Below, piece by piece: positions 1,808 to 55,779 of a stretch of 64,000 nt of DNA (positions are counted from its first letter, which is position 1; every line of letters starts with the position of its first letter). The stretch lies in assembly GCA_964019425.1 (NCBI GenBank), contig OZ025805.1, positions 372,001 to 436,000 on the forward strand, read 5' to 3'. Below the pieces are notes generated by a model. That model saw only the letters and a program-made list of their open reading frames with translations. It had not been told where the DNA came from and did no database searches. The translations under genes were made by a program, and so were the position numbers. Source of the DNA: Flectonema sp. DT1601. Lineage: Eukaryota.

Positions 1808-2369
1808 ATGCAAGTTTTTGTGACGTGTCCTGATTGGGGACTCCCCGCAGTGACAGTGACGGCTGGTGCTGATTCAGTTGTGAACGACGTGTTGACAGAG
1901 GCTGCTGAGGAATGGGATGTGGATCCGGAGGAAGTTGAACTCTCGTTTGCTGGTGATACCCTTTGCGAAATTGATCGGCTGGCAGATCATGGAGTGGTTG
2001 CAAACAGCGAGTTGGAAATGTGGAAGAAGCAGTTTAGGATATTCGGTAAAAGCTGGTTTGTTGATGATGCAAAACGGGAGCAGCTGCTTCTTTGGATGAG
2101 AGATCACATTGCGGAGTATTTATGTCTGGACACTGCCACATTCGCAGAAGATGGTTGCCTAACTGTTGACGGTGACCTTCTTCCTTCAGATGCCGAACAG
2201 GTAGCTTTCCGCAATTCAAATTCCAACAGCACAGCCATGTCATCAGTTACCACTATCGGAGATGAGTTCTTGTCTTCCTGTTCACAAATTACTTCTCTTG
2301 ACCTTTCAAGTCTTAGTAGTGTCACCACTATAGGAAACTTATTCTTGTCTTCCTGTTCACAAATCACTT

Positions 2370-2437
2370 GGGATCACGACACCTGCCTCCTCGCGGCGGT
2401 CCCGGACGACTTCGATAGGGGTCGACAAAACAGTGTC
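2370..2437 (+). ncRNA. HDV-like self-cleaving ribozyme at the LINE 5' end
   Basis: P1 GGGATC/GGTCCC; P2 GACAC(C)T/AGTGTC; P3 GCC/GGC with loop TCCTCGC; P1.1 CC/GG; P4 CGACTTC/GGGGTCG; J4/2 with C2426 followed by As. P1 is 6 bp and P2 is bulged, so the fold is slightly non-canonical. Confidence 0.72.
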
Positions 2438-5341
2438 AAACACAAGAGATGCCAACAACATCAAAACCATCAAAACCAGCTACAACATCCAGAGCATACA
2501 AACCCTGGCTTGTCAAATAAAGAACGGAATAAACTAGCCCATGCCTTGAATGGCAATGGTGGACCAGGAAAGGACAGCAGAGACCGACGCCCGCGAGACG
2601 ATACTCGCGACAGGGACGAAAACCGTCCAAACAAGGAGGAACGTCGCATAGCGAAGCTCGAGAAAGAGAAACTCGACTCGCTAGACGAGATAGAGGAAGA
2701 GAAGCAACGACTGGGGCAGCAGAGAATGGCCATGGAACAGCACCACCACCAGAAGGAAACCAACCTTCAAGGACAAGAAAAACAGTTGGAACAGCAACGC
2801 CAACACCAACAACAAGAACTGCAAAGTCAGTACCACCAACAACAGCAGCAACTGCAAAGCCATCATCAGCTGAAGGAAACGGAAAGTCTCCAGAAGGAGC
2901 AAAACCTACAGGCTCAACTCAAGGAGCGACACCAGCACCAACAGAAGGAATTGGAGAAGCAATACCGCCAACAACAACAGCAACTGGAAAGCCAACAGCA
3001 GAAGAAGGACGCCGAGTCTGAACAGCAAACACATCTGACTCGGTCACAACTACAGAAGGAAAAGGAATCCTTCCAGACAGAGAAGGAACGGCTCCACCTC
3101 CAGCTGGATCAGCAGTTGAAGAACGAGAAGGAGCACCTCCACCAACAACTCCAACAGAAGGAAGACGAGGTTCGTAAAGAAAAGTTAGCAGAGAGAATAG
3201 AACTCCAACAACTGCGAGATGAACTAACTCAACAAGAACAGAACATCCAACGACGTGAGGAAGAGGTGAACCGAGGACAGCACCAACTACACCAACAACA
3301 ACAACAACTAGAGCAGCAGCAACAGCAATCGCAACATCAGCAACTGGAACTACAACAACAACGGCAACAACAGCAACAGCAACAACAGCATCAACAACTG
3401 GAACTGGAACAACAACAACTACAACAGCAACAGCAACTGCAACAACATCGACAACCGCAACAACAACCGCAACAGCAACCCGTACACTACATGCAACATC
3501 AACCGTATGCAACGTACGACACCTACGCCCAGCAGCAGCAGTCTTCCCACTACGAAGGGCTACAACAGGAACTGAAGCGGGAAAGAGAGGAGAAGAGCGA
3601 ACTACGCGAGATGCTCCGAACTCTCCAACAACAACTGGACGGATTGAGAGAAGAACTCAAGGCCCAACATGCTGAGGCGAAGAGGCAGCAGGAAACGGCG
3701 GGACGAGAAGCGAGAGAGATGCAAGAACGTTTCTTGCTAGAACTCGAAGCGGAACGGGTCCAGATCAGAGGGCTCAACTCACTGAGAGAAGAGGAAGAGG
3801 AACTTCAGATGGACACCACCCCTGATCAGGAAGCAAACACGGAAGTGAAGCAAACGCCACCAGTGAAGCTGCCCCAAGACGGTATGAGGGAGCTGGACGC
3901 CTCACGCAAGAAGCTGATGAAAGAAATCAATGAAGGGCAGGTAGCCGGACGATCGGCCATCCAAGAGCAGATGGTCCGAGAGGCCGGGAGACTGGCGCAG
4001 ACTCAGAAGAGCTGGGAGAACGCAGCACGCAAGGAGCGATCCAGGGTGGATAACCTCTCGCTGGCACCGGAATACTGGCCAGAGGGAATGGCGATCACGA
4101 AGGAGCAGTACGACGCCGGTGCAAAGGGAGTACACCTCACCACCAGAGAGGAGGCAAGGAAGAGGATGTCGGGAACACCTCCGGGAGCCTGGGAAACGTT
4201 ATCCCTGGTAACCCTGGAACCACCATCAGACACGGCGCAGAAAGTACAGGTAGTACTAAAGGAGACGACGAGCGACGGCGAGAAGAGAATTCTCAAGCAG
4301 CTCTGGATGACAACACTGGGAAGAGTGGTTGTACCATCCGGAACAGACGTCGTGCGGACGGAAAGCACGAGGGAGATGGTTGTCCGGGTGGACAAAAAAT
4401 GGTCCGGAGAGAAGAGATGGTCGGAAGTGAAGCGCTCCCCGTTCAGGGCAACGGAGGAATTGAAGAAGATGCCGGGGTATGTCGATACGTACAACCCGCG
4501 GATCGGAGACCAGAGCGTGACCGTGATGCTCAGGGTGAAGGTAGCCGAAGTGAAGAACTTCCTCCGAGAATCGGGGAAGGACGGCGTCTTCACCAAGGAA
4601 AAGGATCCGAGAGAGGAACGAGCAGTGAAGGCGGCGGTCATTTGGCTACCGAAGGACGAGACGCTCGGAATCGCTCGGGACAAGGCTGTAGAAGTCGATG
4701 GAGGGCTGGGACTCGTGGTAAACGAACACGGACTCGGGCTTCGAGTGACCAGCTGGCAGGAAACGGCGGCGAGGGAGAAACTGCACCTGCCGGCTAAGCT
4801 ACCGGAAACAAAGATCACGGGTATCCCGATCGGCACAACCACCGACGAAGCGATCAAGTGGCTGATCACGAAGGAAGGCTGGGAAGTGAGGAAGACGAAG
4901 GAAGGCGTACGGAACGGCATGCGATGGATGGTCGTCCGCGGTCCGGTGAGAACGCAGGAAACCATCACAGTGGATGGCGTCCTGTGCATGGTGGAGGCTG
5001 GGAAACAGAAGGAGGAAGTCGACCCGAAACGGAAGGAGACCAAACGCCCGAATGCGACACCGACGAAACCAGAGAAAAGGCGTGACCCGACGGAGGGAAC
5101 GGGAGGAAAGTGGTACACTCGATTGGAGTTCATCGAGTTTCATGGGAAGAAGAAGGGACAACGCCTATGGTTAGAAGCCAGCAACCCAACACCAACTACG
5201 ACGGCACCTACGAAGACAGCGACCGCAACGACAACAGCGAGAAAGGAGCCCAAGTCGACAAAAAAGAAGGAGAACAGCTCAGTGGACGAGAGATTGGACC
5301 GACTGGAACGTCTACTGATGGCGTTCATGGAACGGAATTGA
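2370..5341 (+). CDS. LINE ORF1: Q/E-rich coiled coil plus globular C-terminal region; true start uncertain
   Basis: Open from the element 5' end (in frame with host ATG 1808) to TGA 5339-5341; first in-frame ATG is only at about 2725. Confidence 0.85.
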
Positions 5342-8300
5342 CCGGCGGAGGACGGAAGGAACTGGGCGGAGACACGGAGACGTCTCCTGCTACAAGCTGG
5401 CGACGTTGAGAGGAACCCCGGACCGAGACCACGAATCGATGGGCTCACCGTGGGAACAATCAATGTCACCACACTAGAAGGAAAAATAGATGCCATCACA
5501 GATCTGAACCTAGATCTGATAGCTCTACAGGAAACTTCTCTGACGGGCCCACAGCAACGCCAGATGAAAAAACAGCTCGGTGAGAGAGGATGGGAGGCGA
5601 CGTTCGGGTTAGAGTGCAAATTACTAACCGATGGGCAAAAGACGTGGACGGCGGCGGGAGGCGTGGCCATCTTGACGCGCACTGGTACACCGGTGAGAAG
5701 GATAAAACACGATCGGCTCGACAACACAGGACGATTCGTACACGCGGGAGTGTCGTACGGAAATGGCAAGGTACTGCACGTTTTCTCGTTCTACGGAGAC
5801 GTACGTTCGGCGGTCTACACGGAAGAGTTGATTGCGGAGATGCTCGTGGAAGCAGCAGCTCTGGGTGATGTTCCCGTATTTATAGCGGGGGACTTCAACG
5901 TCGAAACAACGGAATCGCCGGCGCTTCTGTCGGCTTTCGCACACGGACTCTGGATAGATGCCGCCGTCTCGATGGGAAACATGACACCGACAAGCGAAGC
6001 GGGAAAAGGACTTCGTAGAATCGATGCTATTCTGATGAACCGCGGGGCGGCGACAGCAATCTCGAATGACACAACGATCCATGTGCATAAGAGTGAGCTG
6101 ATCCCGACACACAAGCCGGTCATCATTAGAAAGCTCAACATCTCACGCTACAACGAGAAGGCTCCTAGGCTGATAGTACCGAAACAGTTGGATACCTCCG
6201 AGACAACGGACCCGCGTGAGGGGAAGGCCGAAAGGCAACTCCACTGGACGCGAGCTGTAGCGACGGAAGATCCTGACAAGATGCTGGAGGCGCTTGGAGA
6301 GATCATCGAAAGATACCTTCTGACGGGAAAGCTGGAGATAAGTAACCCAGCCAAGTACAAGGGACGCGGGAAGAAGCGTGAGCCTGTGATGTGGACGAAC
6401 GCGGCGAAACAAGACGGGAGAGGAGCGACGTGCAGGGAAACGCGGAGAAGACTGCAGAAGATACGTGTTCTGGAGGAAGTGATGAAAATCACAAAGCAAC
6501 GCGATGGTCCGACGGTGCCGTCCCACGAAGTAATGAAACTCTGGAAAAAATTACGAAAACTCGATCCGACGACGGGATCCGAAATACCACAGACGGAGGA
6601 GCTTCGGATACTACTACAACAAGCGAGACAGGAGCAAGCGATAGAAAGCAAGAAGCTCCGAACTGAACGCATCCGCATGTGGAAACGGAATGTTGTCGAC
6701 AATTGGAATGACGACCGCACGAAGGTTTTCCAGTGGATCAGGAACGTCGAGCAATCGAAGACTGTTCTGATGGAAAAGGCAGATGGAAGCTGGACGGCCA
6801 ACTGCTCCGAGATGGATGAGGCCATGCACGCGGCATGGGACCCCATACTCAAAAAGTACTTGTCAGACCCGGAACCAGACTGGATGAAGTTCGAAGAACG
6901 GTACAGCAACTACATCGAGGAACACCCGATGCGATGCGAAGATATCACCGGGGAGGACGTTGCAAAAGCCCTCAGAAGGACTAGCTCGCGCAAAGCAGCT
7001 GGGGTAGACGGCTTCAGGATATCGGAGCTCAAGTTGCTACCGGAGGACATGATCCAGATGATAGCGGAATTCTACAACATAGTGGAGAGAACACACTGGC
7101 CGGAAGCACTTCTCACGGCACTGGTGTCGGCCATACCCAAAGGGGCAGGGACGAAACCACTGGAGCAGAGACCCATTACGGTGACATCCGCACTTTACAG
7201 GCTATGGGGCTGTATACGTATGGAAAAGGATGTAATGGAGTGGCAAGAAAAGTGGGCTCACGACGGGCAGTACGGCTACCGGAAGGGGAGATCTACGCTC
7301 GACCTCAGCTGGAAGATAGCACTAGACGTGGAACACGCAACTCTCTACGGAGAAGAGATTGCTGGAGTGACCACGGACTTCAGGAAGTGTTTTGACCTGA
7401 TCCCGCACGACATCCTCCTGAAATTAGTGAAGGAATTGGGCCTCGGTAATAAGATCCTGAGAACTGTGACGGATGTCTACCGGCGACTCAGAAGGAGATT
7501 CAAGTTCCCGAGCGGCGTCGGAGAAGAATTTGCCACCACCAACGGAATACTGCAAGGATGCCCGCTCAGCGTGGTGCTCTTCAATGCGCTGAGCTCGATA
7601 CTCAGCAAAGCAATCGAGAGGGAAGCCGATGTGACGCCCGGATCGTATGCGGACGACCTGACATTGTTTGGATCACGAACGAAGCTACAAGAAGGCGTGG
7701 AAGTCGTTGCGGAGTTCTGCACCCTGACCGGACAAGAACTCGCGCCTCAGAAATGCAAGTGGTTCTCGAACAGAGACCAGAGCCAGACCAACATCACAAT
7801 GGGGGACACAACACTGGACTTCGATGACAGTGTCGATATCGTGGGATGCCACCTCAGTATGAAAGGAACCACCAAGCAGATGGGGAGGATCACAGAAGAA
7901 GTGCTCGATAGAGCGAGGCGAATCCGGTTACTTCCGCTCAGATATCAAGCGAAGGAACAGATAGCTGCAGCTAGTGTCATGCCCAAGGCGCTCTTCGGAA
8001 CGGCACTGTACGATCCCGATGCGACGCGACTCGGACTGCTGAGAAGAGCAATGGCAACGGGGATTTTCCGCAAACTTGGAGGGAAAAGAACTAAGATGTC
8101 GCACACCATGGGCCTAACGCTACTCTGCAAGGGACATTGTGTGGATCCCGCGACGTACATTAGGTACAACAGACTCCTTGCACTCACCAGAATGCTACCG
8201 AAGCTAACTGAGAGGATACGCAGGGTATGGGAACACCTGCAAGAGCACACTGAAGCGACGAGAGGACCAGTCGGCCTCGCCCTGAGTACTCTGAAGGAAC

Positions 8301-10078
8301 TTGGATGGGAATGGTCAACTTTCTCGGTCTTCGAAGGTCCGGGAGGGACGACCGAACACGGACGGCTGGATGCGGGGCGCTGGCGGCACGATGTCAGAGA
8401 GGCGTGCAGGCGTTTCACCTGGAACAAAACAATTGCGGAAACGAGACGGGTAAACCTGAGAGGTATTGAAGCGGGCATCGACCGGAAAGAGACCCTGAAG
8501 GTCCTGAAGGAAGGAAAGGGCGACCCCTACCTGCGCGGAGTAGTGAAGCACTGCCTCCTGGACAACGTGTACACTGGTTCGATGAAGGCGGGAAACAAGA
8601 ACTGCGCGCACTGCGAGGAGGTTGACGACGTAGAGAGGACGGAGACCCTCGAGCACGTGAACTGGGATTGCAGAGCTTATGACACGATCCGACAGGAATA
8701 CCCGCAAGTGATGCTACAAGTTCGAAGCGATTGGCCCAATTGCCTGAGGCTACTCGGCATCAAGCCCGACAATGTGGAACTGCCGGCGGGGCTCACCGGA
8801 GACCTACAACGAATGTTCGCACGGATCAGGCTCCGCAGGGACGAGTACCAACAACTGGAGGAGAGACGGCTGACGGTTGTGGAATACGCTGGGAACAAAG
8901 AACCGGAAGTAGTTATGCGATACAACAACAAACTGGAAAAGTACATGCCAGTATACACCCAATGGCCCGAAGCCCTTGGATTGACCTTGTACTTAGCGCT
9001 TGCGAGCTACCTGAGGGAACTGAAGTGGCCTCGACAGCCAGACGGGGTCGGAGTCACCTTCCTGGAATTAGCGATCGACTTCGAAGCGTATGCGGGGGTT
9101 GACATACCGACCACAGTCCACGAAGGCCACGTAGCGAAGTGCACCAAAGACAGAGCCGCCGGGAAGAAAGCTGACGTCATGTGTGGACTGATGCTAAGAT
9201 TGAACTTGGTTCACAAGCATTTAGAAGGCGAGGAACAAAGAACCTTTCCCGACTACTGCGTAGGAAGCAACAAAGCCTTACGTCCACTAGGAGCCCCGGT
9301 ACTGAAAGGTTTGAAGAAACGACCAGCTTTTCTGATGGGAGACGAAACAGTAGACACAATTCGGAGGACGGTCCAAGAGGCGAACGACGGAAAAGCTGAC
9401 AAAATCAGATTCGGCTTCGAGACTGAGTGCAGGCACTCGAGCGAGAGGGAAGGGAGAGCGGAGAAATGGATAACCGCGGCACGACTTTTCCCATCAAAGG
9501 AAAAAGACGTACAGCTGAGGAGGGAGCTCTGCGAGCGAGGACCGACACGCCCGCCACCCGAGGTCGTCAAGAGACCGGGCATCGCGGAGGGACAAGGAAC
9601 GATGAACTCGACGTGCTACGGACACTTCAAGAAGAAATGCAATAGTTGTCGACGGGCCGGAAACACCATCTACCAGTGCTGCCACAACCATCACACTCTG
9701 GGGGATGAAGATGGACAAATACCGATATGGGACTTTTGCAGCAAGCACAAGCTTACTCCATGTGCAGTCTGCATAGTGATCGGCAGAGGATCTGAGCAAT
9801 GTTGCAGAAACAGCCACCACCGATGCCGTCACCACGAGATGGCTCCCTGCAACGACTGCAAGCGGAATCCGGATCCGGAACAACGGACTGCCACGAAATG
9901 CTGCAACAAAAAGCATCACGGGCCAATTATAAGGACGTTGACGAGGAGGGCGAAGCAGCCGACGAAGCATGATATGCAAACCAGCACATCGCTTCTAAAA
10001 TTAGGTTTCACCAAACAAATGAAACCAAAAGCAGAGGAAACCCCTGAAAGGGAACCCCAGGACAAGGGGTTAACTTAG
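5342..10078 (+). CDS. LINE ORF2: 2A peptide, APE endonuclease, reverse transcriptase, CCHC zinc finger, C-terminal Cys/His repeats
   Basis: APE motifs TINV, IALQET, GGVAIL, AGDFN, RIDAIL, PTHKP; RT motifs QRPIT, DFRKCFD, GILQGCPLS, YADD (7646-7657); CAHC...ETLEHVNWDC; frame is open from the base after the ORF1 stop. Confidence 0.95.
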   Translation, partial: PAEDGRNWAETRRRLLLQAGDVERNPGPRPRIDGLTVGTINVTTLEGKIDAITDLNLDLIALQETSLTGPQQRQMKKQLGERGWEATFGLECKLLTDGQKTWTAAGGVAILTRTGTPVRRIKHDRLDNTGRFVHAGVSYGNGKVLHVFSFYGDVRSAVYTEELIAEMLVEAAALGDVPVFIAGDFNVETTESPALLSAFAHGLWIDAAVSMGNMTPTSEAGKGLRRIDAILMNRGAATAISNDTTIHVHKSELIPTHKPVIIRKLNISRYNEKAPRLIVPKQLDTSETTDPREGKAERQLHWTRAVATEDPDKMLEALGEIIERYLLTGKLEISNPAKYKGRGKKREPVMWTNAAKQDGRGATCRETRRRLQKIRVLEEVMKITKQRDGPTVPSHEVMKLWKKLRKLDPTTGSEIPQTEELRILLQQARQEQAIESKKLRTERIRMWKRNVVDNWNDDRTKVFQWIRNVEQSKTVLMEKADGSWTANCSEMDEAMHAAWDPILKKYLSDPEPDWMKFEERYSNYIEEHPMRCEDITGEDVAKALRRTSSRKAAGVDGFRISELKLLPEDMIQMIAEFYNIVERTHWPEALLTALVSAIPKGAGTKPLEQRPITVTSALYRLWGCIRMEKDVMEWQEKWAHDGQYGYRKGRSTLDLSWKIALDVEHATLYGEEIAGVTTDFRKCFDLIPHDILLKLVKELGLGNKILRTVTDVYRRLRRRFKFPSGVGEEFATTNGILQGCPLSVVLFNALSSILSKAIEREADVTPGSYADDLTLFGSRTKLQEGVEVVAEFCTLTGQELAPQKCKWFSNRDQSQTNITMGDTTLDFDDSVDIVGCHLSMKGTTKQMGRITEEVLDRARRIRLLPLRYQAKEQIAAASVMPKALFGTALYDPDATRLGLLRRAMATGIFRKLGGKRTKMSHTMGLTLLCKGHCVDPATYIRYNRLLALTRMLPKLTERIRRVWEHLQEHTEATRGPVGLALSTLKELGWEWSTFSVFEGPGGTTEHGRLDAGRWRHDVREACRRFTWNKTIAETRRVNLRGIEAGIDRKETLKVLKEGKGDPYLRGVVKHCLLDNVYTGSMKAGNKNCAHCEEVDDVERTETLEHVNWDCRAYDTIRQEYPQVMLQVRSDWPNCLRLLGIKPDNVELPAGLTGDLQRMFARIRLRRDEYQQLEERRLTVVEYAGNKEPEVVMRYNNKLEKYMPVYTQWPEALGLTLYLALASYLRELKWPRQPDGVGVTFLELAIDFEAYAGVDIPTTVHEGHVAKCTKDRAAGKKADVMCGLMLRLNLVHKHLEGEEQRTFPDYCVGSNKALRPLGAPVLKGLKKRPAFLMGDETVDTIRRTVQEANDGKADKIRFGFETECRHSSEREGRAEKWITAARLFPSKEKDVQLRRELCERGPTRPPPEVVKRPGIAEGQGTMNSTCYGHFKKKCNSCRRAGNTIYQCCHNHHTLGDEDGQIPIWDFCSKHKLTPCAVCIVIGRGSEQCCRNSHHRCRHHEMAPCNDCKRNPDPEQRTATKCCNKKHHGPIIRTLTRRAKQPTKHDMQTSTSLLKLGFTKQMKPKAEETPEREPQDKGLT
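5381..5425 (+). other. 2A/StopGo ribosome-skipping peptide RLLLQAGDVERNPGP
   Basis: Exact D(V/I)ExNPGP match with the typical upstream LLLxxG, in the ORF1/ORF2 frame. Confidence 0.92.
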
Positions 10079-12181
10079 GTTGGCCGAACCAGTGCCTCGT
10101 CATCTCACCGTGCTAGCAAGCCTGAATGACAGCACTCAAAATGGTACATATATTCCTGTTCACAAATCACTTCTGTAAACCTTTCAGGTCTTAGTAGTGT
10201 CACCATAGTAGGAGGTGGATTCCTGTTTTCCTGTTCACGAGTCGTTTCTCTTGATCTTTCTTGTCTTAGTAGTGTCACCACTATAGGAAACTTATTCTTG
10301 TCTTCCTGTTCACAAATCACTTCTGTAAACCTTTCAGGTCTTAGTAGTGTCACCATAGTAGGAGGTGGATTCCTGTTTTCCTGTTCACGAGTCGTTTCTC
10401 TTGATCTTTCTTGTCTTAGTAGTGTCACTACTATTGGTGATAATTTCTTGTCTTACTGTTCACAAATCACTTTTCTCGACCTTTCAGGTCTCAATAGTGT
10501 CACCTCTATTGGTGATGATTTCTTGTATTCTTGTAAACGGATAGCAACAGTTGACCTTTCAGGTCTTAGTAGTGTCACCACTATTGGGAATAATTTCTTG
10601 TTTTCCTGTGAACAAATCACTTCTCTTGACCTTTCAGGTCTTTGCTGTGTTACTTCTATTGGAGATAGTTTCCTTTCTTTCTGTACACAAATCACTTCTG
10701 TGAACCTTTCGGGTCTTGATAGTGTAACCGCTATAGCAAATGACTTCTTGCGTTGTTGTGTATGTATTATTTCTCTTGATCTTTCAAGTCTTATTAGTGT
10801 CACCACAATAGGAAGTAATTTCTTGCGTAGTTGTTCAGAAATCACTTCTCTTGACCTTTCAAGTCTTGGTAGTGTCACCACTATTGGTGATGACTTTCTC
10901 AGTGAATGCGACGCTCTTGAATCTGTGCAGCTGCCTGAAAGTAATAGCGTTCTCTTTGAGGAGTCTGTGAAAGCAGCGATTGATCACTCAGGTTAAAGTG
11001 GTGAGTTGATTCTTAAAGTTTTGTTATTTTTGTTATTTTTGTTTTATTAATTAGTTGACCTTCGTGTACATTCTGACTAAAATATGAAAACTTCTTATCA
11101 AAGATTACGGAATAAGAACAATCATCGATTTGAGAACTACTTTAAAAGGTATTCCGGTCACATAAAAGAAAGGAAAGAAGAGTAAGAAAAGAAAATAATA
11201 ATTAAGAATATTTAAGAAAATAATATTTAAAAAAAGTAAATAAGTAAAAAAAAATGCTCCACAAGGCCGTGACCGTGGTATACGTTTCTCCAAACTTTTG
11301 GTTGGAATTGTAAGTTTTCCCTTAATAAAAAGTTCATTGTGACGATAACAACCCCATTTTTATTCTCCTTTTTAAAACTTTCTTAATATTTTATTGCATG
11401 GCATTCACTCCAGATCGAAGTTAATATTATTTTTCTTAAAACAGCGACACGGATGTAAATTATTAGAGACAGAGGCTATCCGGAATTTTACATTTTTATT
11501 AAAAATGCTTTTTTTTAATCTAAACTTCCATCACAGGATAATTTTTCTCACAAGAACTCTTGCGATGCAGGTTTCTGTAGTGTTTCCCGACTCAGGATTT
11601 GGAGATGCAGTTTTGACATCAACATCAGAGTCTGTCGTACGTGATGTTATAGAAACAGTTAACTGAGGAATGGGATGTTGTCAGAATTTATTGAGATGAT
11701 CGTATTGCGGTGATGTTTTTTAGAAAGGAATGGTTTTACTGATTTGAATAAGATAAATAAACTGCTAACACCGAGTAATGACATTTATTTTGAACAATAA
11801 AATTAGATTCGACTTGTGAGACATTTACTGTTGAAGATGTATTGATTTGATATCGAGTTGGGTAATTGTTTCCTATCTAACCTTCATTTGGTAATCTGAT
11901 CAGAGTTTACATTTGGTTGGGAATATTTGAAAAAAATAAGCAGGGAAGTTCTCCATTGATATCGGAAATGAGTACCTAGGCATGGGTCACATCCTTGTAG
12001 TGTTCACTTTCATTCATTCAGGTCACTGAAACAGATGAATCCTTTAGTAAAACAGTATTCATACCCCTTTGAGGGAATGTAATTACATGTCGCATCCTCG
12101 TAGTACTCGATACCCAGATGTCACTTGTACGAGTTCTTTCTAACAGAACCTTTCCCACCTCACAGCAAATTATTTAAAAAA

Positions 12182-14055: not shown

Positions 14056-14944
14056 TTTAAAAAATGACAATGCAAGTTTTTGTGACGTGTCCTGATTGGG
14101 GACTCCCCGCAGTGACAGTGACGGCTGCTGCTGATTCAGTTGTGAACGACGTGTTGACGGCGGCGGCTGGGGAGTGGGATGTGGATCCGGATGAAGTTGA
14201 ACTCTCGTTTGCTGGTGATACCCTTTGTGAAACTGATCGGCTGGCAGATCATGGAGTGGTTGCAGACAGCGAGTTGGAAATGTGGAAGAAGCAGTTTAGG
14301 ATATTCGGTAAAAGCTGGTTTGTTGATGATGCAAAACGGGAAAAGCTGCTTCTTTGGATGAGAGATCACATTGCGGAGTATTTATGTCTGGACACTGCCA
14401 CATTCACAGAAGATGGTTGCCTCACTGTTGACGGTGACCTGCTTCCTTCAGATGCCGAACAGGTTGCTTTCCGCAATTCAAATTCCAACAGCACAGCCAT
14501 GTCATCAGTTAACACTATTGGAGATGGATTCTTGTCTTCCTGTTCACAAATTACTTCTCTTGACTTATCATGTCTTTGTAGTGTCACTACTATTGGACAT
14601 AGATTCTTATATTTCTGTTCAGAAATCACTTCTGTAAACCTTTCAGGTCTTAGTAGTGTCACTACTATTGGAGATAAATTCTTATATTATTGTTCAAGGA
14701 TCGAAGTTATTATTATTTTTAAAACAGCGACGCGGATGTAAATTATTTGAGACAGAGGCTATCTGGAGTTCTACATTTTATATTTTACTCTAACTTCTGA
14801 CTTCTTGAGGAAAATAAATACATGAAGTAGAAATGTAAGGAAGTACAGTATTGATGTATGTGTTTGAACTGTTCAATAATCAGAAAGACTCACAAGCAGC
14901 GATTCGTACTTCTGTTTTTCGTTTGAAATCAATGAATAATGTAA

Positions 14945-15059
14945 TGGCCTTCCGACGCCACCTGGACCGCAACTCGTTCACAGTGCCCTACCCGGTTCTC
15001 CACCGGACCGTCTGAGCGACGGGATCCATGGGATTCAAACCCCTAAACACTGGTTAATC
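14945..15059 (+). mobile_element. 3' fragment of the ~690-bp ribozyme-headed short retroelement
   Basis: TGGCCTTCCGACGCC...CACTGGTTAAT matches the last ~115 bp of the full copies and abuts an LRR at the usual register. Confidence 0.9.
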
Positions 15060-15154
15060 TAATTGTTCAAGGATTACTTCTCTTGACCTTTCAGGTCTTA
15101 GTAGTGTCACTGTTATTGGAGATTGCTTCTTGTGTTGCTGTAAACAAATCACTA

Positions 15155-15227
15155 GGGTAACGAAACTCGGACAGCGCGCCTCCTCGTGGTGTTGCCTGGA
15201 TGCACCTTGTGTGTAACTAGAGTGCTG
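15155..15227 (+). ncRNA. HDV-like ribozyme heading the short retroelement (also 51349-51421, 52362-52434, 53149-53221, 54025-54097)
   Basis: P1 GGGTAAC/GTTGCCT with G1-U wobble; P2 CAGCGC/GTGCTG; P3 GCC/GGT with loop TCCTCGT; P1.1 CC/GG; P4 TGCAC/GTGTA; J4/2 ACTAGA. Confidence 0.9.
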
Positions 15228-15834
15228 ACGTATTGTTGTTGTTGCTGTGTATTCTTTTACCCCCGTTTTATTTTCCGGTAGCCTAACCTTTAAAAAAAAA
15301 GGACAACATAGCAGAAGGTCAGGTGATCCGGCCCGGGATACTCAGGCACCCAGAGCTCACAGGGGCCACCGGGTTTTTATTTTTTCCTTAGTGGCATGAT
15401 TTCCCTTTACCCCCATTTCCTTCAAACTTCCCCCGTTTAGTCTTTTCACGCATGGGGGGATTATAAGTTCAGGTCGCCTGAAATGTATTAACAGTATCAG
15501 CCCCGCGAGTTACTCGGGAAGCTCCCATGCAATGTGTGGAGAAAGAGGCCATCCCTCCCCCTACCTCTCTGCTTTACTACGTCGTTTTTTGTGTGTGGCA
15601 TTTCTTTTCTTTTCAATCCTGTTCTTTCACACGCGGTTGTTCGAGCGGTTGTGAACCACCTTGGGTCTCTTACGGTCTCCAAGCTACTGTTGTGCGAAGA
15701 AACAAATCTGTTGGTGCGGTGGCCTTCCGACGCCACCTGGACCGAAACTCGTTCACAGTGCCCTACCCGGTTCTCCACCGGACCGCCTGAGCGACGGGAT
15801 CCATGGGATTCAAACCCCTAAACACTGGTTAATT
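15155..15834 (+). mobile_element. Non-autonomous short retroelement (SINE/SIDER-like), copy A
   Basis: 20-bp TSD TTGCTGTAAACAAATCACTA at 15135-15154 and 15835-15854; near-identical to four copies at 51-55 kb. Confidence 0.95.
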
Positions 15835-17816
15835 TTGCTGTAAACAAATCACTATTCTAGACCTTTCTAGTCTCCATAGTGTCACCACAATTGGTCATGG
15901 TTTCTTGTATTCCTGTTCACAAATTACTTTTCTTGACCTTTCAGGTCTTACTAGTGTCACCGCTATTGGTGATCGCTTTATCAGTAAATGCGACTCTCTT
16001 GAATCTGTCCAGCTTCCTGAAAGTAATAGCGCTCTCTTTGAGGAGTCTGTGAAAGCAGCGATTGATCATTCAGGATAAAGTGTGAATTGATTCTTAAAAT
16101 TTTGTTTTTTTTAGTGATTTTTGTTTTATGGGAAAATAGTTTGCGAAATCGCCAACTCCCTACAAAAAAAAGTTGTCCACCAGGACTCGAACTTGACCCA
16201 AAATTTTGGCTTGCGGCGGGTTTTTTGTTTTTTAGCCTACCAAGCTGGGAAGAGTGCAAGGGGGGGCTTGCGTTATAGGTGGGAGGTTTACCAACAATGA
16301 AATACCACTACTCTTATCGTTGCTTATCCAATGATGGGGGAGCGGCAGCTGCCTCTTCGGAGGTTAGGGTCCTTTCGGACTCGTGGCTTTGACGATAAAA
16401 AACCCATTTTTATTCTCCTTTTTTTTCTTGTTTGAAAAATAAAACAACGAAATGTAATTTTTTTAATGCATACGAAATTTAGTCGCATGTATTTTAAGTC
16501 AGAGTTCGAACCTGGACATGTTTTAACAGGTCCGGCGCAGTTATGACCCTTAAACTGACTGTCATCTTGCCTGATCCCTTTGGTTTTCATTTCTTGCTGA
16601 GTGATATGGCTATGTGCTGCCCAAATCTTTTGTGGTACATTCCTAAAGCTTTTCGGTAAGCCCACAGTACAATTATAATGCTTTGGACAACTGGGGGTGA
16701 ACGATCCTCGGTACTGTTCCGGGGTTTTCTATCGTCTTTCGTGGAGTGTGGGCATATGGCACATGTGGTCGTATTATAAAGAAAGATGTATATGAAAGAA
16801 AGAAGTTTTTTTATTTTTTTCACCTTCCCCCCACTCCCGGATCATTTCTCTTTTATTTTCTTTAGTTGTTTACAACCTGTTAGCCTCTGGGCAAGGTGGA
16901 AGCTGGAAGTCGATCACTTCCAGCCAATACTATGAAACTACAATCTTCGCGATTGGGTCCTTACTGATGCGGGCTGCCCACCCCTCGTAGTCATCAGTTT
17001 GTATTTTGCTAACTAAACTAAACTAACTACAAGAGACCTGTTGTTAAGACATTCTCCCTCAAGCATCCACAGCACATGTTCAGAATTTGTCATCGCGAAG
17101 CGCTGACAAACATTATGAAGCGTTCTGGAAGCTAGCCATCTGTAAATATTGTAAAGGAGACGGAAAAAGATTTAAAAAAAAAAATATTATGAACTCGTAA
17201 ACCGGAACTAAAAATAAAAATAAAATAATATGTCACCACAAACACACTTGAACCATCTAAACAACGGGAACAGAACAAAACAAACCAAATCACATAATTA
17301 ACAAAAAAAAATGATAAAAAGTGCAAAAAAAAAAAAATGAAAAGAAAGTAATCAGCTTCAAACTAGTGCTAAAATTCCCAGCAACTTGCGTTGGGCGCCT
17401 CCACACCTTCGCTCATGTTGATACTATAAAGGTGTGTGTGCTGATGGCCTCAGTCTTCAAAAAAGATAAAATATGTTAGATCACCACATTGATTAAAAAA
17501 AAAATACTCAAAACTAACTGAGTCAAGACGTAGGGAGTGAGACACTAAGAAGTTCCTTCCTCAATGTTAGATTATTAAACAGAGCAAAGCAAACTAATAT
17601 CGAAAGCACAATCACATGACCTACAACAATAACGTTGTGTTCTTTTTTTTGATACGATTCAATAATTTATACTTCTCTTTCGAAATAGCATGATCGACAT
17701 GGGACGGATCTTTTTTTGCGTAATCAATAAAAGAATAACAATATAAGGGAAGTTGAACTGACAGTAATCTTTTTTGTGTGATACTGCTTTTTTGTATCAT
17801 TGTTATCTTCCATTAT

Positions 17817-41442: not shown

Positions 41443-41830
41443 TATCGGTTTTTTATATTATAATTAAGTTAGATATTTTTCTCCTAACCTCCTCTTCTTC
41501 CTCCTTCCTCATATTTCTTTTTTTTTAGATTTCGTTAGACTAATTGTGATATCATTCTGTCTTGTTCTATATTTATATTATTATTGTTATTGTTTGCGAC
41601 AGGAATCATCATCAAATTATGGGTGTTTTTCGGTTATTTATTTTTTTATTTTTTTTGTTTTTTTGCAAAAACAAAGTTTTTTAGGCAACCCAAATTATGA
41701 AAACTACAACAAAAATACCCCCCAAAAATAGGGATTGCGATCCAAAGAAACAGTTCTTAAGCACTTTAGAACAAGTCTTTGAAAAATCTCAAAAAGTGTG
41801 AACCAGTAACTGAGGGGGGGGGGGGGGTAG

Positions 41831-43799: not shown

Positions 43800-43803
43800 T
43801 AGG

Positions 43804-49389: not shown

Positions 49390-51348
49390 AGTAGTGAATG
49401 GGTTCATTTGTCTTTAATAATTTAAAGAAGATTCTCTGATAGGAAGATTGATACCAACAATGTCATTCAACATGTCGATTCACGTGGAGTAGCTGTTGAA
49501 GACAATTAAAACAGAAAACACGACTTCTTGATGTGGTGACGGCCTGATCAATAACAACTAATACAAATCAATTTTTTCTTACAACTGGAACTGTGATGTA
49601 GTAATTGTTAGTGAGTGTTTTAACTACTTAGTAAGAGGGAAATAATAAAAGAATGTAGTTGTTGGAACCGACTCTACTAAATTACATTACCGACAATTAA
49701 CGTTTCGGTTGGGTTGTCGGAGCAAGAAAGAGAGAAGTATTTTGTCACATGCTTGGTAGTCTTTAATATGTTTATGCTCGATTTCCTTTTCTCTATTTTC
49801 TTGTTTTAGTACTTGCCTGTACTTACTGCTGAACTGATTCGGTGAACCACAAAATCTCTTTTTTCTCAATTCAGGTGACAAGTATGTGATGCCAACCTCA
49901 TTTAAATTAGTGAGAGCAACCAATCGAATCATATTACTGTAATCATAAATAACGTGGTGTGTAAAGAAAATTAGAATGGAACAATTTAAGAAATTAAAAA
50001 GGGGACGGTGGATTTATAAAAAAGTATTGAAGCACACATTTTGACTGTAAAATAGTAGTTTTTGAGAGACCATTGGGTACCTTCAGAAGGCAATAGTCCC
50101 ATACTTTATTATAAAATGCCAGGGAGCTGGGACTCCAATCGGATCACCCTGGCCTCGCAGTATATGACCAGTTTAGGGGACAGATAACTGAGGAAGTCCT
50201 AGACTAATCCTAACAGCCTTGGTACACAAGACCAACTTTAACCAGTTCAAATGTCGATAATTTAGTATCAGAAAATCAAAAACTTTATTTGCTAAAGTGT
50301 TTTCTGTGAATGTTTCTACTATTAAAAAACTGTGATTCTCTAAAAAGGCTCGTCACGTCTCATTTGGTCTATTGCAAAGGACGGTTACAAGGACTCGGCG
50401 TCACGCGGAAACTCGAAGAAAAATGCCGAGCAGTACAGAATAGACGCGGCAGCCTCCATAGAAGACACAAGTTTTGCGAAGGTGATGTGAGGATTACTGG
50501 CCGCCTAGCACACCTCGATATGATACATTCACTTCCAATACGAGTGAATGTATTAACAGTGTGTTCAAAGAAGCTCGTCAAACCTCGATTCTGGGGATTA
50601 TAAGATCGACATGAATGTGGATCGCTAATACTTTCGCAAAGCGACGGGGGATGTATTTTGGTGAAGAGGGAGTCGCACCGCTGCCAAATGTGAAAGATGT
50701 TATTGAGTTGTCAGTAGCACTCATGGCTCAATGTACCGTGAAATAGATTAGAACAGGGAAGCTGTGAAACACATTTGTGAATTACTTTTGTACACATTCT
50801 TTACACAGCAGCCATATATTAACACCCCACAGCAAATAGTAATTCAAAAAACTAACAAACAATGCAAGTTTCCGTGACGTGTCCTGATTGGGGACTCCCC
50901 GCAGTGACAGTGACGGCTGGTGCTGATTCAGTTGTGAACGACGTGTTGACGGCGGCGGCTGGGGAGTGGGATGTGGATCCGGATGAAGTTGAACTCTCGT
51001 TTGCTGGTTGTACCCTTTGCGAAACTGATCGGCTGGCAGATCATGGAGTGGTTGCGGACAGCGAGTTGGAAATGTGGACGAAGCAGTTTAGGATATTCGG
51101 TAAAAGCTGGTTTGTTGATGATGCAAAACGGGAGAAGCTGCTTCTTTGGATGAGAGACCACATTACGGAGTATTTATGTCTGGACACTCTCACATTCACA
51201 GAAGATGGTTGCCTCACTGTTGAGCGTAAGTTGCTTCCTTCAGATGCCAAACAGGTTGCTTTCCGCAATTCAAATTCCAACAACACAGCCATGTCATCAG
51301 TTACCACTATCGGAGATGAGTTCTTGTCTTCCTGTTACCACATCACTG

Positions 51349-52047
51349 GGGTAACGAAACTCGGATAGCGCGCCTCCTCGTGGTGTTACCTGGATGCACC
51401 TTGTGTGTAACTAGAGTGCTGACGTATTGTTGTTGTTGCTGTGTATTCTTTTACCCCCGTTTTATTTTCCGGTAGCCTAACCTTTAAAAAAAAAAAAGGA
51501 CAACATAGCAGAAGGTCAGGTGATCCGGCCCGGGATACTCAGGCACCCAGAGCTCACAGGGGCCACCGGGTTTTTATTTTTTCCTTAGTGGCATGATTTC
51601 CCTTTACCCCCATTTCCTTCAAACTTCCCCCGTTTAGTCTTTTCACGCATGGGGGGATTATAAGTTCAGGTCGCCTGAAATGTATTAACAGTATCAGCCC
51701 CGCGAGTTACTCGGGGAGCTCCCATGCAATGTGTGGAGAAAGAGGCCATCCCTCCCCCTACCTCTCTGCTTTACTACGTCGTTTTTTGTGTGTGGCATTT
51801 CTTTTCTTATATTCTTTTCTTTTCAATCTTGTTCCTTCACACGCAGTTGTTCGAGCGGTTGTGAACCACCTTGGGTCTCTTACGGTCTCCAAGCTACTGT
51901 TGTGCGAAGAAACAAATCTGTTGGTGCGGTGGCCTTCCGACGCCACCTGGACCGCAACTCGTTCACAGTGCCCTACCCGGTTCTCCACCGGACCGCCTGA
52001 GCGACGGGATCCATGGGATTCAAACCCCTAAACACTGGTTAATTTTT
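51349..52047 (+). mobile_element. Short retroelement, copy B
   Basis: TSD TTCCTGTTACCACATCACTG at 51329-51348 and 52048-52067. Confidence 0.95.
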
Positions 52048-52361
52048 TTCCTGTTACCACATCACTGCGCTTGACCTTTCAAGTCTTCATAGTGTCACAA
52101 CTATTAGATACGAATTCTTGTATATCTCACGACTCACCTCTGTTGACCCTTCTAGTCTTCGTAGTGTAACATCCATTGGTTATAGTTTCTTGTCCTATTC
52201 CGAAATCACTTCTCTTGACCTTTCAGGTCTAAGTAGTGTCACAAGTATTGGTGATTATTTCGTGTCTCGTTATTCCCACATCACTGCGCTTGACTTTTCA
52301 GGTCTTATTAGTGTCACCACTATTGGAAAGAGTTTCTTGAGTTACTGTTTAGGAATCACTT

Positions 52362-53053
52362 GGGTAACGAAACTCGGACAGCGCGCCTCCTCGTGGTGTT
52401 GCCTGGATGCACCTTGTGTGTAACTAGAGTGCTGACGTATTGTTGTTGCTGTGTATTCTTTTACCCCCGTTTTATTTTCCGGTAGCCTAACCTTTAAAAA
52501 AAAAGGACAACATAGCAGAAGGTCAGGTGATCCGGCCCGGGATACTCAGGCACCCAGAGCTCACAGGGGCCACCGGGTTTTTATTTTTTCCTTAGTGGCA
52601 TGATTTCCCTTTACCCCCATTTCCTTCAAACTTCCCCCGTTTAGTCTTTTCACGCATGGGGGGATTATAAGTTCAGGTCGCCTGAAATGTATTAACAGTA
52701 TCAGCCCCGCGAGTTACTCGGGGAGCTCCCATGCAATGTGTGGAGAAAGAGGCCATCCCTCCCCCTACCTCTCTGCTTTACTACGTCGTTTTTTTGTGTG
52801 TGGCATTTCTTTTCTTATATTCTTTTCTTTTCAATCTTGTTCCTTCACACGCAGTTGTTCGAGCGGTTGTGAACCACCTTGGGTCTCTTACGGTCTCCAA
52901 GCTACTGTTGTGCGAAGAAACAAATCTGTTGGTGCGGTGGCCTTCCGACGCCACCTGGACCGCAACTCGTTCACAGTGCCCTACCCGGTTCTCCACCGGA
53001 CCGCCTGAGCGACGGGATCCATGGGATTCAAACCCCTAAACACTGGTTAATTT
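52362..53053 (+). mobile_element. Short retroelement, copy C
   Basis: TSD TTACTGTTTAGGAATCACTT at 52342-52361 and 53054-53073. Confidence 0.95.
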
Positions 53054-53148
53054 TTACTGTTTAGGAATCACTTCTGTGAACTTCTCAGGTCTTAGTAATG
53101 TCACCACTTTTGACTACCGGTTCATGTATTCCTGTTCAGGAATCACTA

Positions 53149-53854
53149 GGGTAACGAAACTCGGATAGCGCGCCTCCTCGTGGTGTTGCCAGGATGCACC
53201 TTGTGTGTAACTAGAGTGCTGACGTATTGTTGTTGTTGCTGTGTATTCTTTTACCCCCGTTTTATTTTCCGGTAGCCTAACCTTTAAAAAAAAAAAAGGA
53301 CAACATAGCAGAAGGTCAGGTGATCCGGCCCGGGATACTCAGGCACCCAGAGCTCACAGGGGCCACCGGGTTTTTATTTTTTCCTTAGTGGCATGATTTC
53401 CCTTTACCCCCATTTCCTTCAAACTTCCCCCGTTTAGTCTTTTCACGCATGGGGGGATTATAAGTTCAGGTCGCCTGAAATGTATTAACAGTATCAGCCC
53501 CGCGAGTTACTCGGGGAGCTCCCATGCAATGTGTGGAGAAAGAGGCCATCCCTCCCCCTACCTCTCTGCTTTACTACGTCGTTTTTTTGTGTGTGGCATT
53601 TCTTTTCTTATATTCTTTTCTTTTCAATCTTGTTCCTTCACACGCAGTAGTTCGAGCGGTTGTGAACCACCTTGGGTCTCTTACGGTCTCCAAGCTACTG
53701 TTGTGCGAAGAAACAAATCTGTTGGTGCGGTGGCCTTCCGACGCCACCTGGACCGCAACTCGTTCACAGTGCCCTACCCGGTTCTCCACCGGACCGCCTG
53801 AGCGACGGGATCCATGGGATTCAAACCCCTAAACACTGGTTAATTTTTTTTTTT
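53149..53854 (+). mobile_element. Short retroelement, copy D (flanks do not match)
   Basis: Left flank TTCCTGTTCAGGAATCACTA, right flank TTCCTGTTTGCGTGTCACTT; both in target register. Confidence 0.93.
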
Positions 53855-54024
53855 TTCCTGTTTGCGTGTCACTTCTCTTTACCTTTCAGGTCTTAGCAGC
53901 ATCACCACTATTGGGAGTGGTTTCTTGTCTTCCTGTTCGCGACTCACTTCTGTGAACTTCTCAGCTCTTAGTAATGTCACCACTATTGGCTGCCGTTTCA
54001 TGTCTTCCTGTTCAGGAATTACTA

Positions 54025-54717
54025 GGGTAACGAAACTCGGACAGCGCGCCTCCTCGTGGTGTTGCCTGGATGCACCTTGTGTGTAACTAGAGTGCTGACG
54101 TATTGTTGTTGTTGCTGTGTATTCTTTTACCCCCGTTTTATTTTCCGGTAGCCTAACCTTTAAAAAAAAAGGACAACATAGCAGAAGGTCAGGTGATCCG
54201 GCCCGGGATACTCAGGCACCCAGAGCTCTCAGGGGCCACCGGGTTTTTATTTTTTCCTTAGTGGCATGATTTCCCTTTACCCCCATTTCCTTCAAACTTC
54301 CCCCGTTTAGTCTTTTCACGCATGGGGGGATTATAAGTTCAGGTCGCCTGAAATGTATTGACAGTATCAGCCCCGCGAGTTACTCGGGGAGCTCCCATGC
54401 AATGTGTGGAGAAAGAGGCCATCCCTCCCCCTACCTCTCTGCTTTACTACGTCGTTTTTTGTGTGTGGCATTTCTTTTCTTATATTCTTTTCTTTTCAAT
54501 CTTGTTCCTTCACACGCAGTTGTTCGAGCGGTTGTGAACCACCTTGGGTCTCTTACGGTCTCCAAGCTACTGTTGTGCGAAGAAACAAATCTGTTGGTGC
54601 GGTGGCCTTCCGACGCCACCTGGACCGCAACTCGTTCACAGTGCCCTACCCGGTTCTCCACCGGACCGCCTGAGCGACGGGATCCATGGGATTCAAACCC
54701 CTAAACACTGGTTAATT
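54025..54717 (+). mobile_element. Short retroelement, copy E
   Basis: TSD TTCCTGTTCAGGAATTACTA at 54005-54024 and 54718-54737. Confidence 0.95.
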
Positions 54718-55779
54718 TTCCTGTTCAGGAATTACTACTCTTGACCTTTCTAGTCTCCATAGTGTCACCACAATTGATCAAGAGTATTGATCAGATCTAA
54801 GTAGTGTCACCAGTATTGGTGATGACTTTCTCGATGAATGTGACTCTCTTGAATCTGTCCAGCTTCCTGAAAGTAATAGCGCTCTCTTTGAGAAGTCTGT
54901 GAAAGCAGCGATTGATCATTCAGGATAAAGTGGTGAATTGATTCTTAAAGTTTTGTTTTTTGTAATTTTTGTTTAACTCATTACCATCGTGTACTTCTGA
55001 CTAAAATATGAAAACTTCTTATCCCTTTGAGGGAATGTAATTACATGTCCCATCCTCGTAGTATTCGATACCCAGATGTCACTTGTATAAGTTCTTTCTA
55101 ACAGCAAGTTTAGCGTTTCGATGAAATAATTCAAAAGAAGCAACGCAAGTTTTAGTGACGTGTCCTGATTGGGGACTCCCCGCAGCACTCGCTATGATGA
55201 TGATGATATCACTTCATGTGGCTCAGATAGCTCATAATTCATCATAAGTTGTGACTTCATATAAAGAAAGTGTTGTACAAGTGTTTTCATTAAGTATCAA
55301 AGTTGCACACGTAAACCTTCTTTAACTTTATCAGTTTCAGTTCACAGTTACGTGACGAACAAAACATCACAGTTGTTATATTATTATTTTCTGTATAGTT
55401 CAAGATAAAGCCAATTCTCTTTTAGTAAATATAAACCCATTGTTTGGTAGAGCGTGACTAAGCTATTCCTTTATTAAAGATTTTTTACTGGTTGCGCCAA
55501 AACAAAACTAAAATGAAGTGCAATTTGCCGATTCCTTTTTACCCAGGTAGTACTTTTACAAAGAATGTAGAACCGAATTGGTTAAACATTTCATTACAGG
55601 AATCTAACAACATGTCACATTCTTCGTAGTATTCGATACCCAGACATGATTCAATGTAGGGATCGTATTTATATAATTGTTGCCGCCTGGCGTTTGGAAC
55701 ACAACATCCACACATTCTTTACACAGCAGCCATATATTAACACTCCACAGCATATAGTAATTCAAAAAAGAAAGTAACA

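What the first reader, a model, noticed from the sequence alone, without database searches (positions are those of the whole stretch)
15155..15227. Canonical HDV-like ribozyme on the short element, with structure-preserving variation among copies
Seen: 7-bp P1 with G1-U. Copy B changes the P1 U-G pair to U-A (GTTACCT). Copies B and D change the first P2 pair from C-G to U-G. Copy D has A opposite G1 and may be impaired. All five 5' junctions fall exactly at G1. Inference: these non-coding elements need no promoter; they are cut from host LRR transcripts and would also cleave the host mRNA.
Basis: partly seen in the sequence, partly recalled or inferred. Interest (0 to 1): 0.8.

Follow-up and report, generated by a model that had tools for sequence, protein, structure and literature searches.

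The report
Ribozyme-tipped retroposon targeting LRR genes
A short non-coding repeat sits at one fixed codon position inside leucine-rich-repeat genes of what is likely a diplonemid protist and begins exactly with a predicted self-cutting RNA of the hepatitis-delta type, which would free it from the host transcript so that a longer retrotransposon using the same site could likely copy it; the ribozyme trick is known, but such strict targeting of a protein-coding repeat is unusual.

Summary
The fold and all the listed copy differences are real. 15155-15227 forms a complete HDV-type double pseudoknot. G1 is the first base of a ~680-nt non-coding element in 5 of 5 full copies, and 4 of the 5 have exact 20-bp target-site duplications. 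'Canonical' is slightly too strong: J4/2 is one base long, and Rfam gives no match. The variation among copies is not evidence of selection: 3 sites, no compensatory pair, one change breaks a pair, and a copy in run X1 has lost the catalytic C. Better support comes from outside the finding. A 7.8-kb APE-RT LINE in the window (nearest named relative Flectonema, a diplonemid) starts with a different-sequence ribozyme of the same fold. It sits at the same codon phase of the LRR repeat with the same 20-bp duplication, as do two copies on other contigs. Best reading: a non-autonomous retroposon released from host read-through RNA and copied in trans into a fixed site of LRR genes. It works like RIME/NARTc and R2/R1 SIDEs but is not an ingi-type element or an internal deletion of this LINE. 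'No promoter needed' and cleavage itself are untested.

The parts
15155..15227 (+). Predicted HDV-like ribozyme, copy A. P1 15155-61/15191-97, J1/2 15162-71, P2 15172-77/15222-27, P3 15178-80/15188-90, L3 15181-87, P1.1 15182-83/15198-99, P4 15201-05/15211-15, predicted catalytic C 15217
   Evidence: 23 of 23 pairs standard in copy A
15155..15834 (+). Short non-coding element, copy A (~680 nt, ends in GGTTAA plus a short T run, no ORF over 109 codons)
15135..15154 (+). 5' copy of the 20-bp target-site duplication (LRR codons x-C-K-Q-I-T plus one base)
15835..15854 (+). 3' copy of the 20-bp target-site duplication
14945..15059 (+). 5'-truncated copy F (3' end only); its 3' junction is at the same LRR phase, its 5' flank is not LRR
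14070..16078 (+). Host BspA-type LRR gene interrupted by F and A (frame already closed at 14741)
51349..52047 (+). Short element copy B, 20-bp TSD
52362..53053 (+). Short element copy C, 20-bp TSD
53149..53853 (+). Short element copy D, G1-A mismatch, flanks do not match (likely recombinant)
54025..54717 (+). Short element copy E, 20-bp TSD
50862..54928 (+). Host LRR gene carrying B, C, D and E in successive repeat units
2370..10152 (+). Long element (LINE), same LRR phase, 20-bp TSD at 2350-2369 and 10153-10172; candidate donor of the insertion machinery
2370..2437 (+). Second predicted HDV-like ribozyme with a different sequence (6-bp P1, G1-C, predicted catalytic C 2426)
   Evidence: weak Rfam RF00094 match, 20.6 bits against a gathering score of 50, E 0.31
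2369..5341 (+). ORF1 of the long element, open through the ribozyme and in frame with the host LRR gene from ATG 1808; first own in-frame ATG at 2726
5342..10078 (+). ORF2: 2A-like motif (DVERNPGP, motif name recalled), APE endonuclease, reverse transcriptase, Cys/His-rich C-terminus; no RNase H found

Best explanation
15155-15227 is a predicted HDV-like self-cleaving ribozyme that forms the exact 5' end of a ~680-nt non-coding repeat, which is likely a non-autonomous retroposon copied in trans by an APE-RT LINE into one fixed codon position of BspA-type LRR genes. Shown: the fold can form completely; G1 is the junction; the 20-bp duplications; one site and one orientation; a LINE at the same site with its own ribozyme fold. 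Inferred: (1) host read-through transcription, probably polycistronic as proposed for diplonemids, passes through the copy in sense; (2) the ribozyme cuts 5' of G1, so host sequence is not carried along and new copies start at G1; (3) the LINE's endonuclease nicks the LRR unit 4 nt upstream of the Cys codon and again 20 nt further on, and its reverse transcriptase copies the element RNA by target-primed reverse transcription, the variable T run arising at a target that starts with TT; (4) the host gene copy is lost through premature stops, and the multicopy LRR family absorbs this.
For: All five helices and the core signature are present: L3 U..G, the P1.1 CC/GG pair, and C then R-A in J4/2 (feature definitions from passages of PMC6326823 and PMC3386971). 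6 of 6 full 5' junctions in the window lie 16 nt after the Cys codon start. TSDs are exactly 20 bp in 5 of 6 and differ in sequence, so A, B, C, E and the LINE are separate insertions. About 41 such sites in 52.6 kb of host DNA give ~2e-14 for four further hits by chance. A contig in run X1 holds a copy at the same phase with different flank letters. Both of the 2 ORF1-cluster proteins that reach the element's start (2 of 6 members) read C-x-x-I-T then the ribozyme-derived peptide, on other contigs (P0256, P0270). The LINE's ribozyme keeps the fold with different P1, P2 and P4 sequences. Nine of 22 ORF1 proteins of sister families start with the ribozyme core read in another frame. A theta ribozyme chosen for its elongated J4/2 was active (PMC10879173 passages).
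Against: No cleavage or RNA data exist here. J4/2 is C-U-A-G-A, where HDV uses two adenosines for an A-minor contact (PMC3386971 passage), and the extra base tested in theta ribozymes was at the last position, which may not be the case here. A competing helix pairs the P1 end and the P1.1 GG with the catalytic C and J4/2 (-6.9 versus -3.2 kcal/mol for P4 alone). In nested-only folding the upstream LRR flank can pair with the P1 5' strand, in B almost as strongly as native P1 (-7.2 versus -7.4). The short and long elements share no significant sequence: the 3' ends scored as well in 151 of 1000 shuffles, and blastn's best E was 0.19 in simple repeats. So the donor LINE is inferred from the shared site and TSD length only. 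Rfam has no match for the short ribozyme.
Confidence: 0.75

Rival explanations
1. [quoted passage not shown] This keeps the retroposon reading and changes only the source of the RNA.
For: Pr77 of L1Tc/NARTc does both, with a CGTG core at +25 to +28 (PMC5814959 section 11). CGTG is present here at +31 to +34. Copy A lies in a gene whose frame is already broken upstream.
Against: CGTG here is part of L3/P3 and is needed for the fold; it lies 6 nt off the Pr77 position, and the LINE's ribozyme has CGCG there. All copies are in sense inside genes, and diplonemid genes are likely co-transcribed (PMC10161547 passages).
Confidence: 0.2
2. The short element's ribozyme is weak or dead (long J4/2, competing helix), and the precise 5' ends come from a transcription start or from an ancestral active version.
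For: Non-standard J4/2; competing helices; D and the X1 copy carry damaging changes; folded but inactive examples exist among SIDERs (PMC5814959 section 11).
Against: Four independent recent insertions (11 substitution sites in 678 nt among five copies) start exactly at G1. Nested-only folding cannot score a pseudoknot. D and X1 may have been damaged after insertion.
Confidence: 0.1
3. The repeat is a non-canonical intron or an exonised segment that is spliced out, so the LRR genes stay functional.
For: Diplonemids have non-canonical introns, and euglenid ones are flanked by short direct repeats (PMC12621601 passages). The element has a GT at +3 and four pyrimidine-tract/AG motifs.
Against: 20-bp duplications, 3' T tails, a 3'-end-only copy and a LINE at the same site are marks of retrotransposition. 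By inspection, a GT at +3 joined to an AG in the downstream flank does not restore the frame in A or C, and B has no AG in its TSD.
Confidence: 0.03
4. There was one insertion, and the copies spread by duplication or gene conversion inside the LRR array, so the shared phase is trivial.
For: D has mismatched flanks, its 5' flank differs from E's TSD by one base, and four copies lie in one gene.
Against: A, B, C and E each duplicate their own different 20-mer exactly. An unrelated 7.8-kb element uses the same phase here and on two other contigs. This rival probably explains D only.
Confidence: 0.03

Closest known systems
ingi/RIME (T. brucei) and L1Tc/NARTc (T. cruzi), with the RHS gene hot spot
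   Same: Euglenozoan APE-RT LINE plus a short non-autonomous partner; HDV-like ribozyme cutting at +1; 2A-like sequence; TSDs; a hot spot inside a protein-coding multigene family that yields pseudogenes (PMC7563717 passages; PMC5814959).
   Different: Here there are two ORFs, no RNase H was found, the tail is T- or AT-rich rather than poly(A), and the short and long elements have different ribozymes and no shared ends, whereas L1Tc and NARTc share their first 77 nt. All junctions seen lie in the target family, whereas L1Tc/ingi show only relative specificity. No ingi- or L1Tc-named protein was among 92 RT hits (word-limited search, most hits unnamed).
R2 SIDEs and R2/R1 hybrid SIDEs of Drosophila
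   Same: Non-coding; 5' HDV-like ribozyme releases the element from a host co-transcript; fixed target; in the hybrids the ribozyme and the mobilising LINE have different origins and the TSD length is that of the donor LINE (PMC3414825 abstract).
   Different: The target is a degenerate protein-coding repeat, not 28S rDNA; no 3' end shared with the candidate LINE could be shown.
HDV-like ribozyme class (HDV RF00094, CPEB3, theta ribozymes)
   Same: Nested double pseudoknot, 7-bp P1 with G1-U, 3-bp P3, 7-nt L3, 2-bp P1.1, cytosine at the start of J4/2.
   Different: One extra base and G-A instead of A-A in J4/2; not detected by any Rfam HDV model.

Membership tests
HDV-like ribozymes | Five helices P1, P1.1, P2, P3, P4 in nested double-pseudoknot order | tested here: met
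   23 of 23 pairs standard in copy A; 98.6% of cells over 3 distinct sequences, against 22-57% when slid
HDV-like ribozymes | P1 of ~7 bp starting at G1 paired with a pyrimidine | tested here: met
   G1-U in 4 of 5 copies, G1-A in D
HDV-like ribozymes | L3 with the U..G trans-wobble signature and CC pairing with GG (P1.1) | tested here: met
   L3 15181-15187 and GG 15198-15199 (definition)
HDV-like ribozymes | J4/2 = catalytic C, one looped-out base, then R-A | tested here: inconclusive
   C-U-A-G-A: fits only with two looped-out bases; an elongated J4/2 was active in one theta ribozyme
HDV-like ribozymes | Rfam covariance-model match | tested here: not met
   No HDV family at E<=10 for the short ribozyme; the LINE's ribozyme reaches 20.6 of 50 bits. 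The models are lineage-specific (recalled), so this speaks to those Rfam families, not to the class.
HDV-like ribozymes | Mg2+-dependent self-cleavage 5' of G1, lost on mutating the catalytic C | not testable with these tools
   needs an in vitro assay
Non-autonomous non-LTR retroposons | No coding capacity, TSDs, variable 3' tail, 5'-truncated copies | tested here: met
   copy F is 3'-end-only but its 5' flank is rearranged
Non-autonomous non-LTR retroposons | 3' end shared with a partner LINE | tested here: not met
   Not significant against the window's LINE: 151 of 1000 shuffles scored as well. 3' ends of sister LINE families could not be fetched.
SIDE (short internally deleted element) of the window's LINE | 5' and 3' ends homologous to the full-length element | tested here: not met
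   blastn best E 0.19; only the P3/L3 core is alike
ingi/L1Tc clade | Single ORF with APE, RT and RNase H | tested here: not met
   Two ORFs split by TGA at 5339; Pfam finds APE and RT only in ORF2 and in P0002-P0004 (definition)
ingi/L1Tc clade | Poly(A) tail | tested here: not met
   Short copies end in a T run, the LINE in an AT-rich stretch
ingi/L1Tc clade | Pr77 sequence hallmark and RT placed with ingi in a tree | not tested
   No Pr77 or ingi sequence was available from a call; the tree has no ingi row
ingi/L1Tc clade | 2A-like motif ahead of APE | tested here: met
   DVERNPGP at the start of ORF2, also in P0003 and P0078; motif consensus recalled

The most novel reading that the evidence does not exclude
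A LINE and an unrelated short passenger have specialised on one codon position of an LRR gene family because the host gene supplies both transcription and translation start. The LINE's ORF1 has no AUG of its own ahead of its conserved N-terminal block and would be made as an LRR-ORF1 fusion from uncut, capped host mRNA, while a slow or flank-tuned ribozyme later releases the exact retrotransposition template. The short element would exploit the same site using only a ribozyme of its own.
Probability: 0.2. Interest if true: 0.8.

Novelty: new variant of a known kind. Interest (0 to 1): 0.55.

Why it matters
A 5' HDV-like ribozyme on a non-autonomous retroposon is known from trypanosomes and Drosophila, so the ribozyme alone is ordinary. 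What would matter is the system. It would extend ribozyme-processed retroposons to diplonemids and to a LINE lineage with an architecture unlike ingi. It shows strict codon-phase targeting of a degenerate protein-coding repeat with a fixed 20-bp stagger, which makes it a natural model of sequence-specific insertion by an APE endonuclease. It interrupts 3 of 6 full-length LRR genes in this window and may drive turnover of that family. The J4/2 variant is a cheap test of how far the HDV core can vary. I found no description in the listings of paper searches (I saw only the top 2-25 listings of each, and subscription papers and Repbase are not covered), so absence from print is not established.

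Tried and rejected
No genome was held for the window, so there is no genome-wide copy census. Rfam on the whole window gave 8 low-complexity matches and no ribozyme. The sequencing-run search listed one run, X1, as contigs: no RNA holder listed. Metagenome scans found nothing for the ORF2 alignment (454 pattern matches, none confirmed) or for a 21-nt ribozyme pattern (0). A viral-contig pattern for the same J4/2 gave 4 loci that by eye lack P3/P1 pairing, taken as chance. My impression of a shared 3' motif between short and long elements failed the shuffle test (322 of 1000 against the whole element, 151 of 1000 against the last 100 nt). The element body folds no better than shuffles (z 0.27). 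No tRNA gene was found in the window and no sense-strand A or B box in the element, so a tRNA-headed SINE is rejected. The PDB and Atlas searches gave only generic LINE-1/R2 RT matches, and the profile-free representative search gave unnamed relatives. Five look-ups of earlier findings were empty. Three relevant papers were not held (Ruminski 2011, Webb and Luptak 2011, Bringaud 2002), so natural J4/2 variation and the RHS insertion frame could not be checked at source. No supplements were read; the descriptor files in the supplement of PMC10879173 may bear on the J4/2 question.

Full report
Observation. The window at 15155-15227 can form all five helices of an HDV-type double pseudoknot with 23 of 23 standard pairs: P1 15155-61/15191-97 with G1-U, P2 15172-77/15222-27, P3 15178-80/15188-90, a 7-nt L3, P1.1 CC/GG, P4 15201-05/15211-15, and a cytosine at 15217 at the start of J4/2. 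My descriptor found six hits on both strands of 64 kb: these five and one at 2370. In 100 shuffles the loose form averaged 0.02 hits and the strict form gave none. I wrote it after seeing the sequence, so that figure flatters it. The independent check is position: each G1 is the first base after a target-site duplication.

How canonical it is. The L3 U..G signature, G1 paired with a pyrimidine and P1.1 match the features given in passages of PMC6326823 and PMC3386971. J4/2 departs from them: C-U-A-G-A, one base longer than C-N-R-A, with G-A where HDV has A-A. Passages of PMC10879173 report an active theta ribozyme with an elongated J4/2, and passages of PMC3774820 report loose J4/2 conservation in silkmoth R2 apart from the C and one A. 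So the variant is plausible but unproven. Rfam does not detect the short ribozyme. Nested-only folding shows two competitors: a 4-bp extension of P4 that would bury the P1.1 GG and the catalytic C, and pairing of the P1 5' strand with the upstream LRR flank, strongest in B. Such folding cannot score the pseudoknot, so these are caveats, not refutations.

The variation is not evidence. Three of 73 ribozyme positions vary, against 8 of 605 elsewhere (Fisher p=0.10). Two changes keep a pair on one side and one breaks G1-U; none is compensatory, and the shuffle control equals the observed value on all five measures. Of 46 possible transitions at paired positions, 28 would keep a pair. One depth-2 contig of run X1 has both of B's changes, different flank letters and an 11-nt deletion across the catalytic C (a single low-depth contig may contain errors). 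The copies are simply young.

What the element is. It is about 680 nt long, has no ORF over 109 codons, ends in GGTTAA plus a variable T run, and is flanked by exact 20-bp duplications in A, B, C and E, each with its own sequence. D's flanks do not match and it is likely a recombinant. A 3'-end-only copy lies at 14945-15059. The host genes encode BspA-type LRRs with 25-residue units; 3 of 6 full-length genes in the window are interrupted. All insertions are in sense and 16 nt after the start of the Cys codon of a unit. With about 41 such sites in 52.6 kb, four further independent hits have a chance of about 2e-14. The host frame stops inside the ribozyme in 5 of 5 copies.

The long element. 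A 7.8-kb element at 2370-10152 occupies the same phase with the same 20-bp duplication. It starts with a second ribozyme fold: same P3/L3 core, different P1, P2 and P4, and a weak match to Rfam's HDV model. That conservation of fold across different sequences is the real comparative support, although homology and convergence cannot be told apart here. ORF2 carries a 2A-like motif (name recalled), an APE endonuclease and an RT, and no RNase H was found. Its nearest named relatives are two Flectonema neradi proteins (75% and 72% over the RT), then Diplonema papillatum. A quick tree of 68 RT regions (25 of 93 dropped for short coverage; the careful search did not finish) puts the window protein, P0001, P0004 and the two Flectonema proteins in one clade with support 100. 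The host is therefore likely a diplonemid (inference). Among the 6 members of the LINE's ORF1 cluster, 2 reach the element's start, and both are LRR fusions at the identical phase on contigs of other lengths; 4 are downstream fragments. Among 22 ORF1 proteins of sister families, 9 begin with the ribozyme core read in another frame, 3 begin with poly-Lys joined to a truncated ribozyme peptide, 10 are fragments, and none carries LRR units. For most of these the flank cannot be seen, so their target is unknown.

The short element is not a deletion derivative of this LINE: neither its body nor its 3' end is significantly similar. The donor is inferred from the shared site and TSD length, and could be another LRR-targeting family.

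Mechanism. Shown: fold, junction at G1, TSDs, fixed site and orientation, a LINE at the same site. Inferred: host read-through transcription (diplonemid genes are likely co-transcribed and trans-spliced; PMC10161547 passages), self-cleavage at G1, then target-primed reverse transcription by the LINE protein with nicks 20 nt apart. 'Needs no promoter' is open, because Pr77 in L1Tc/NARTc is promoter and ribozyme at once (PMC5814959 section 11; PMC4035085 abstract and parts 1-2 of 7). Cutting of the host transcript would follow from activity but matters little for genes already truncated by stops. In the gene with four copies, each ribozyme would also give the preceding copy its 3' end (inference).

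A bolder possibility concerns the LINE. Its ORF1 frame is open from the host ATG at 1808 through the ribozyme, and its first own in-frame ATG (2726) lies after a block conserved with sister families, which have an ATG inside the ribozyme in another frame. This fits translation as an LRR-ORF1 fusion from uncut mRNA. But the three fusions are not independent, since the phase is fixed by the target; one frame in three would match by chance; and cap-independent or non-AUG initiation has been proposed for L1Tc. I give it 0.2.

Comparison and verdict. It works like RIME/NARTc with the RHS hot spot (PMC7563717 passages; PMC12278014 passages) and like R2/R1 hybrid SIDEs (PMC3414825 abstract). It fails the ingi tests on ORF number, RNase H and tail, and the SIDE test on shared ends. 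I also read passages of PMC4908430 (J1/2 length affects rate, and the 10-nt unpaired J1/2 here could slow cleavage), section 18 of PMC3774820 and passages of PMC12621601. Searches listed nothing on diplonemid ribozyme-bearing or LRR-targeting retroposons; I saw listings only.

Noticed in passing
window 1808-5341: The LINE's ORF1 is in frame with the host LRR gene, also in P0256 and P0270; its first own in-frame ATG (2726) follows a block conserved with sister families.
   Followed up: partly
window 5339-5430: ORF1 ends in a single TGA followed in the same frame by a 2A-like motif and ORF2; read-through or re-initiation is possible.
   Followed up: no
window 15800-15815 (minus strand): The short element's 3' end holds an antisense tRNA T-arm/B-box-like motif with one mismatch; could be chance.
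   Followed up: partly
window 15240-15640: Four pyrimidine-tract/AG motifs in the element body (copy E); the last has lost its AG and 13 nt in copy A. Possible trans-splice acceptors.
   Followed up: no
window 16165-16400 (minus strand): B-box-like motif followed by a T run, suggesting an unidentified Pol III RNA; ARAGORN finds no tRNA.
   Followed up: no
window 14699-14784: A non-LRR repeat (also at 11413-11500 and 1069-1133) lies between the LRR frame and truncated copy F, pointing to a rearrangement.
   Followed up: partly
window 12187-14022 and 41650-45827: Segments bounded by long inverted repeats (93-134 nt arms), likely DNA transposons.
   Followed up: no
P0002, P0003 (Flectonema neradi): An extra N-terminal domain ahead of the endonuclease; weak Josephin match in P0003 (E 0.012, below the cut-off).
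   Followed up: partly
P0257, P0271, P0280: Sister-family copies appear 5'-truncated inside the ribozyme and joined to A tracts (poly-Lys N-termini), hinting at a different target.
   Followed up: no
window 21307-21397: A likely host intron with a T tract after the donor and an A tract before the acceptor; a simple pattern found 3 such on + and 4 on -, so it is not shown to be a rule.
   Followed up: partly
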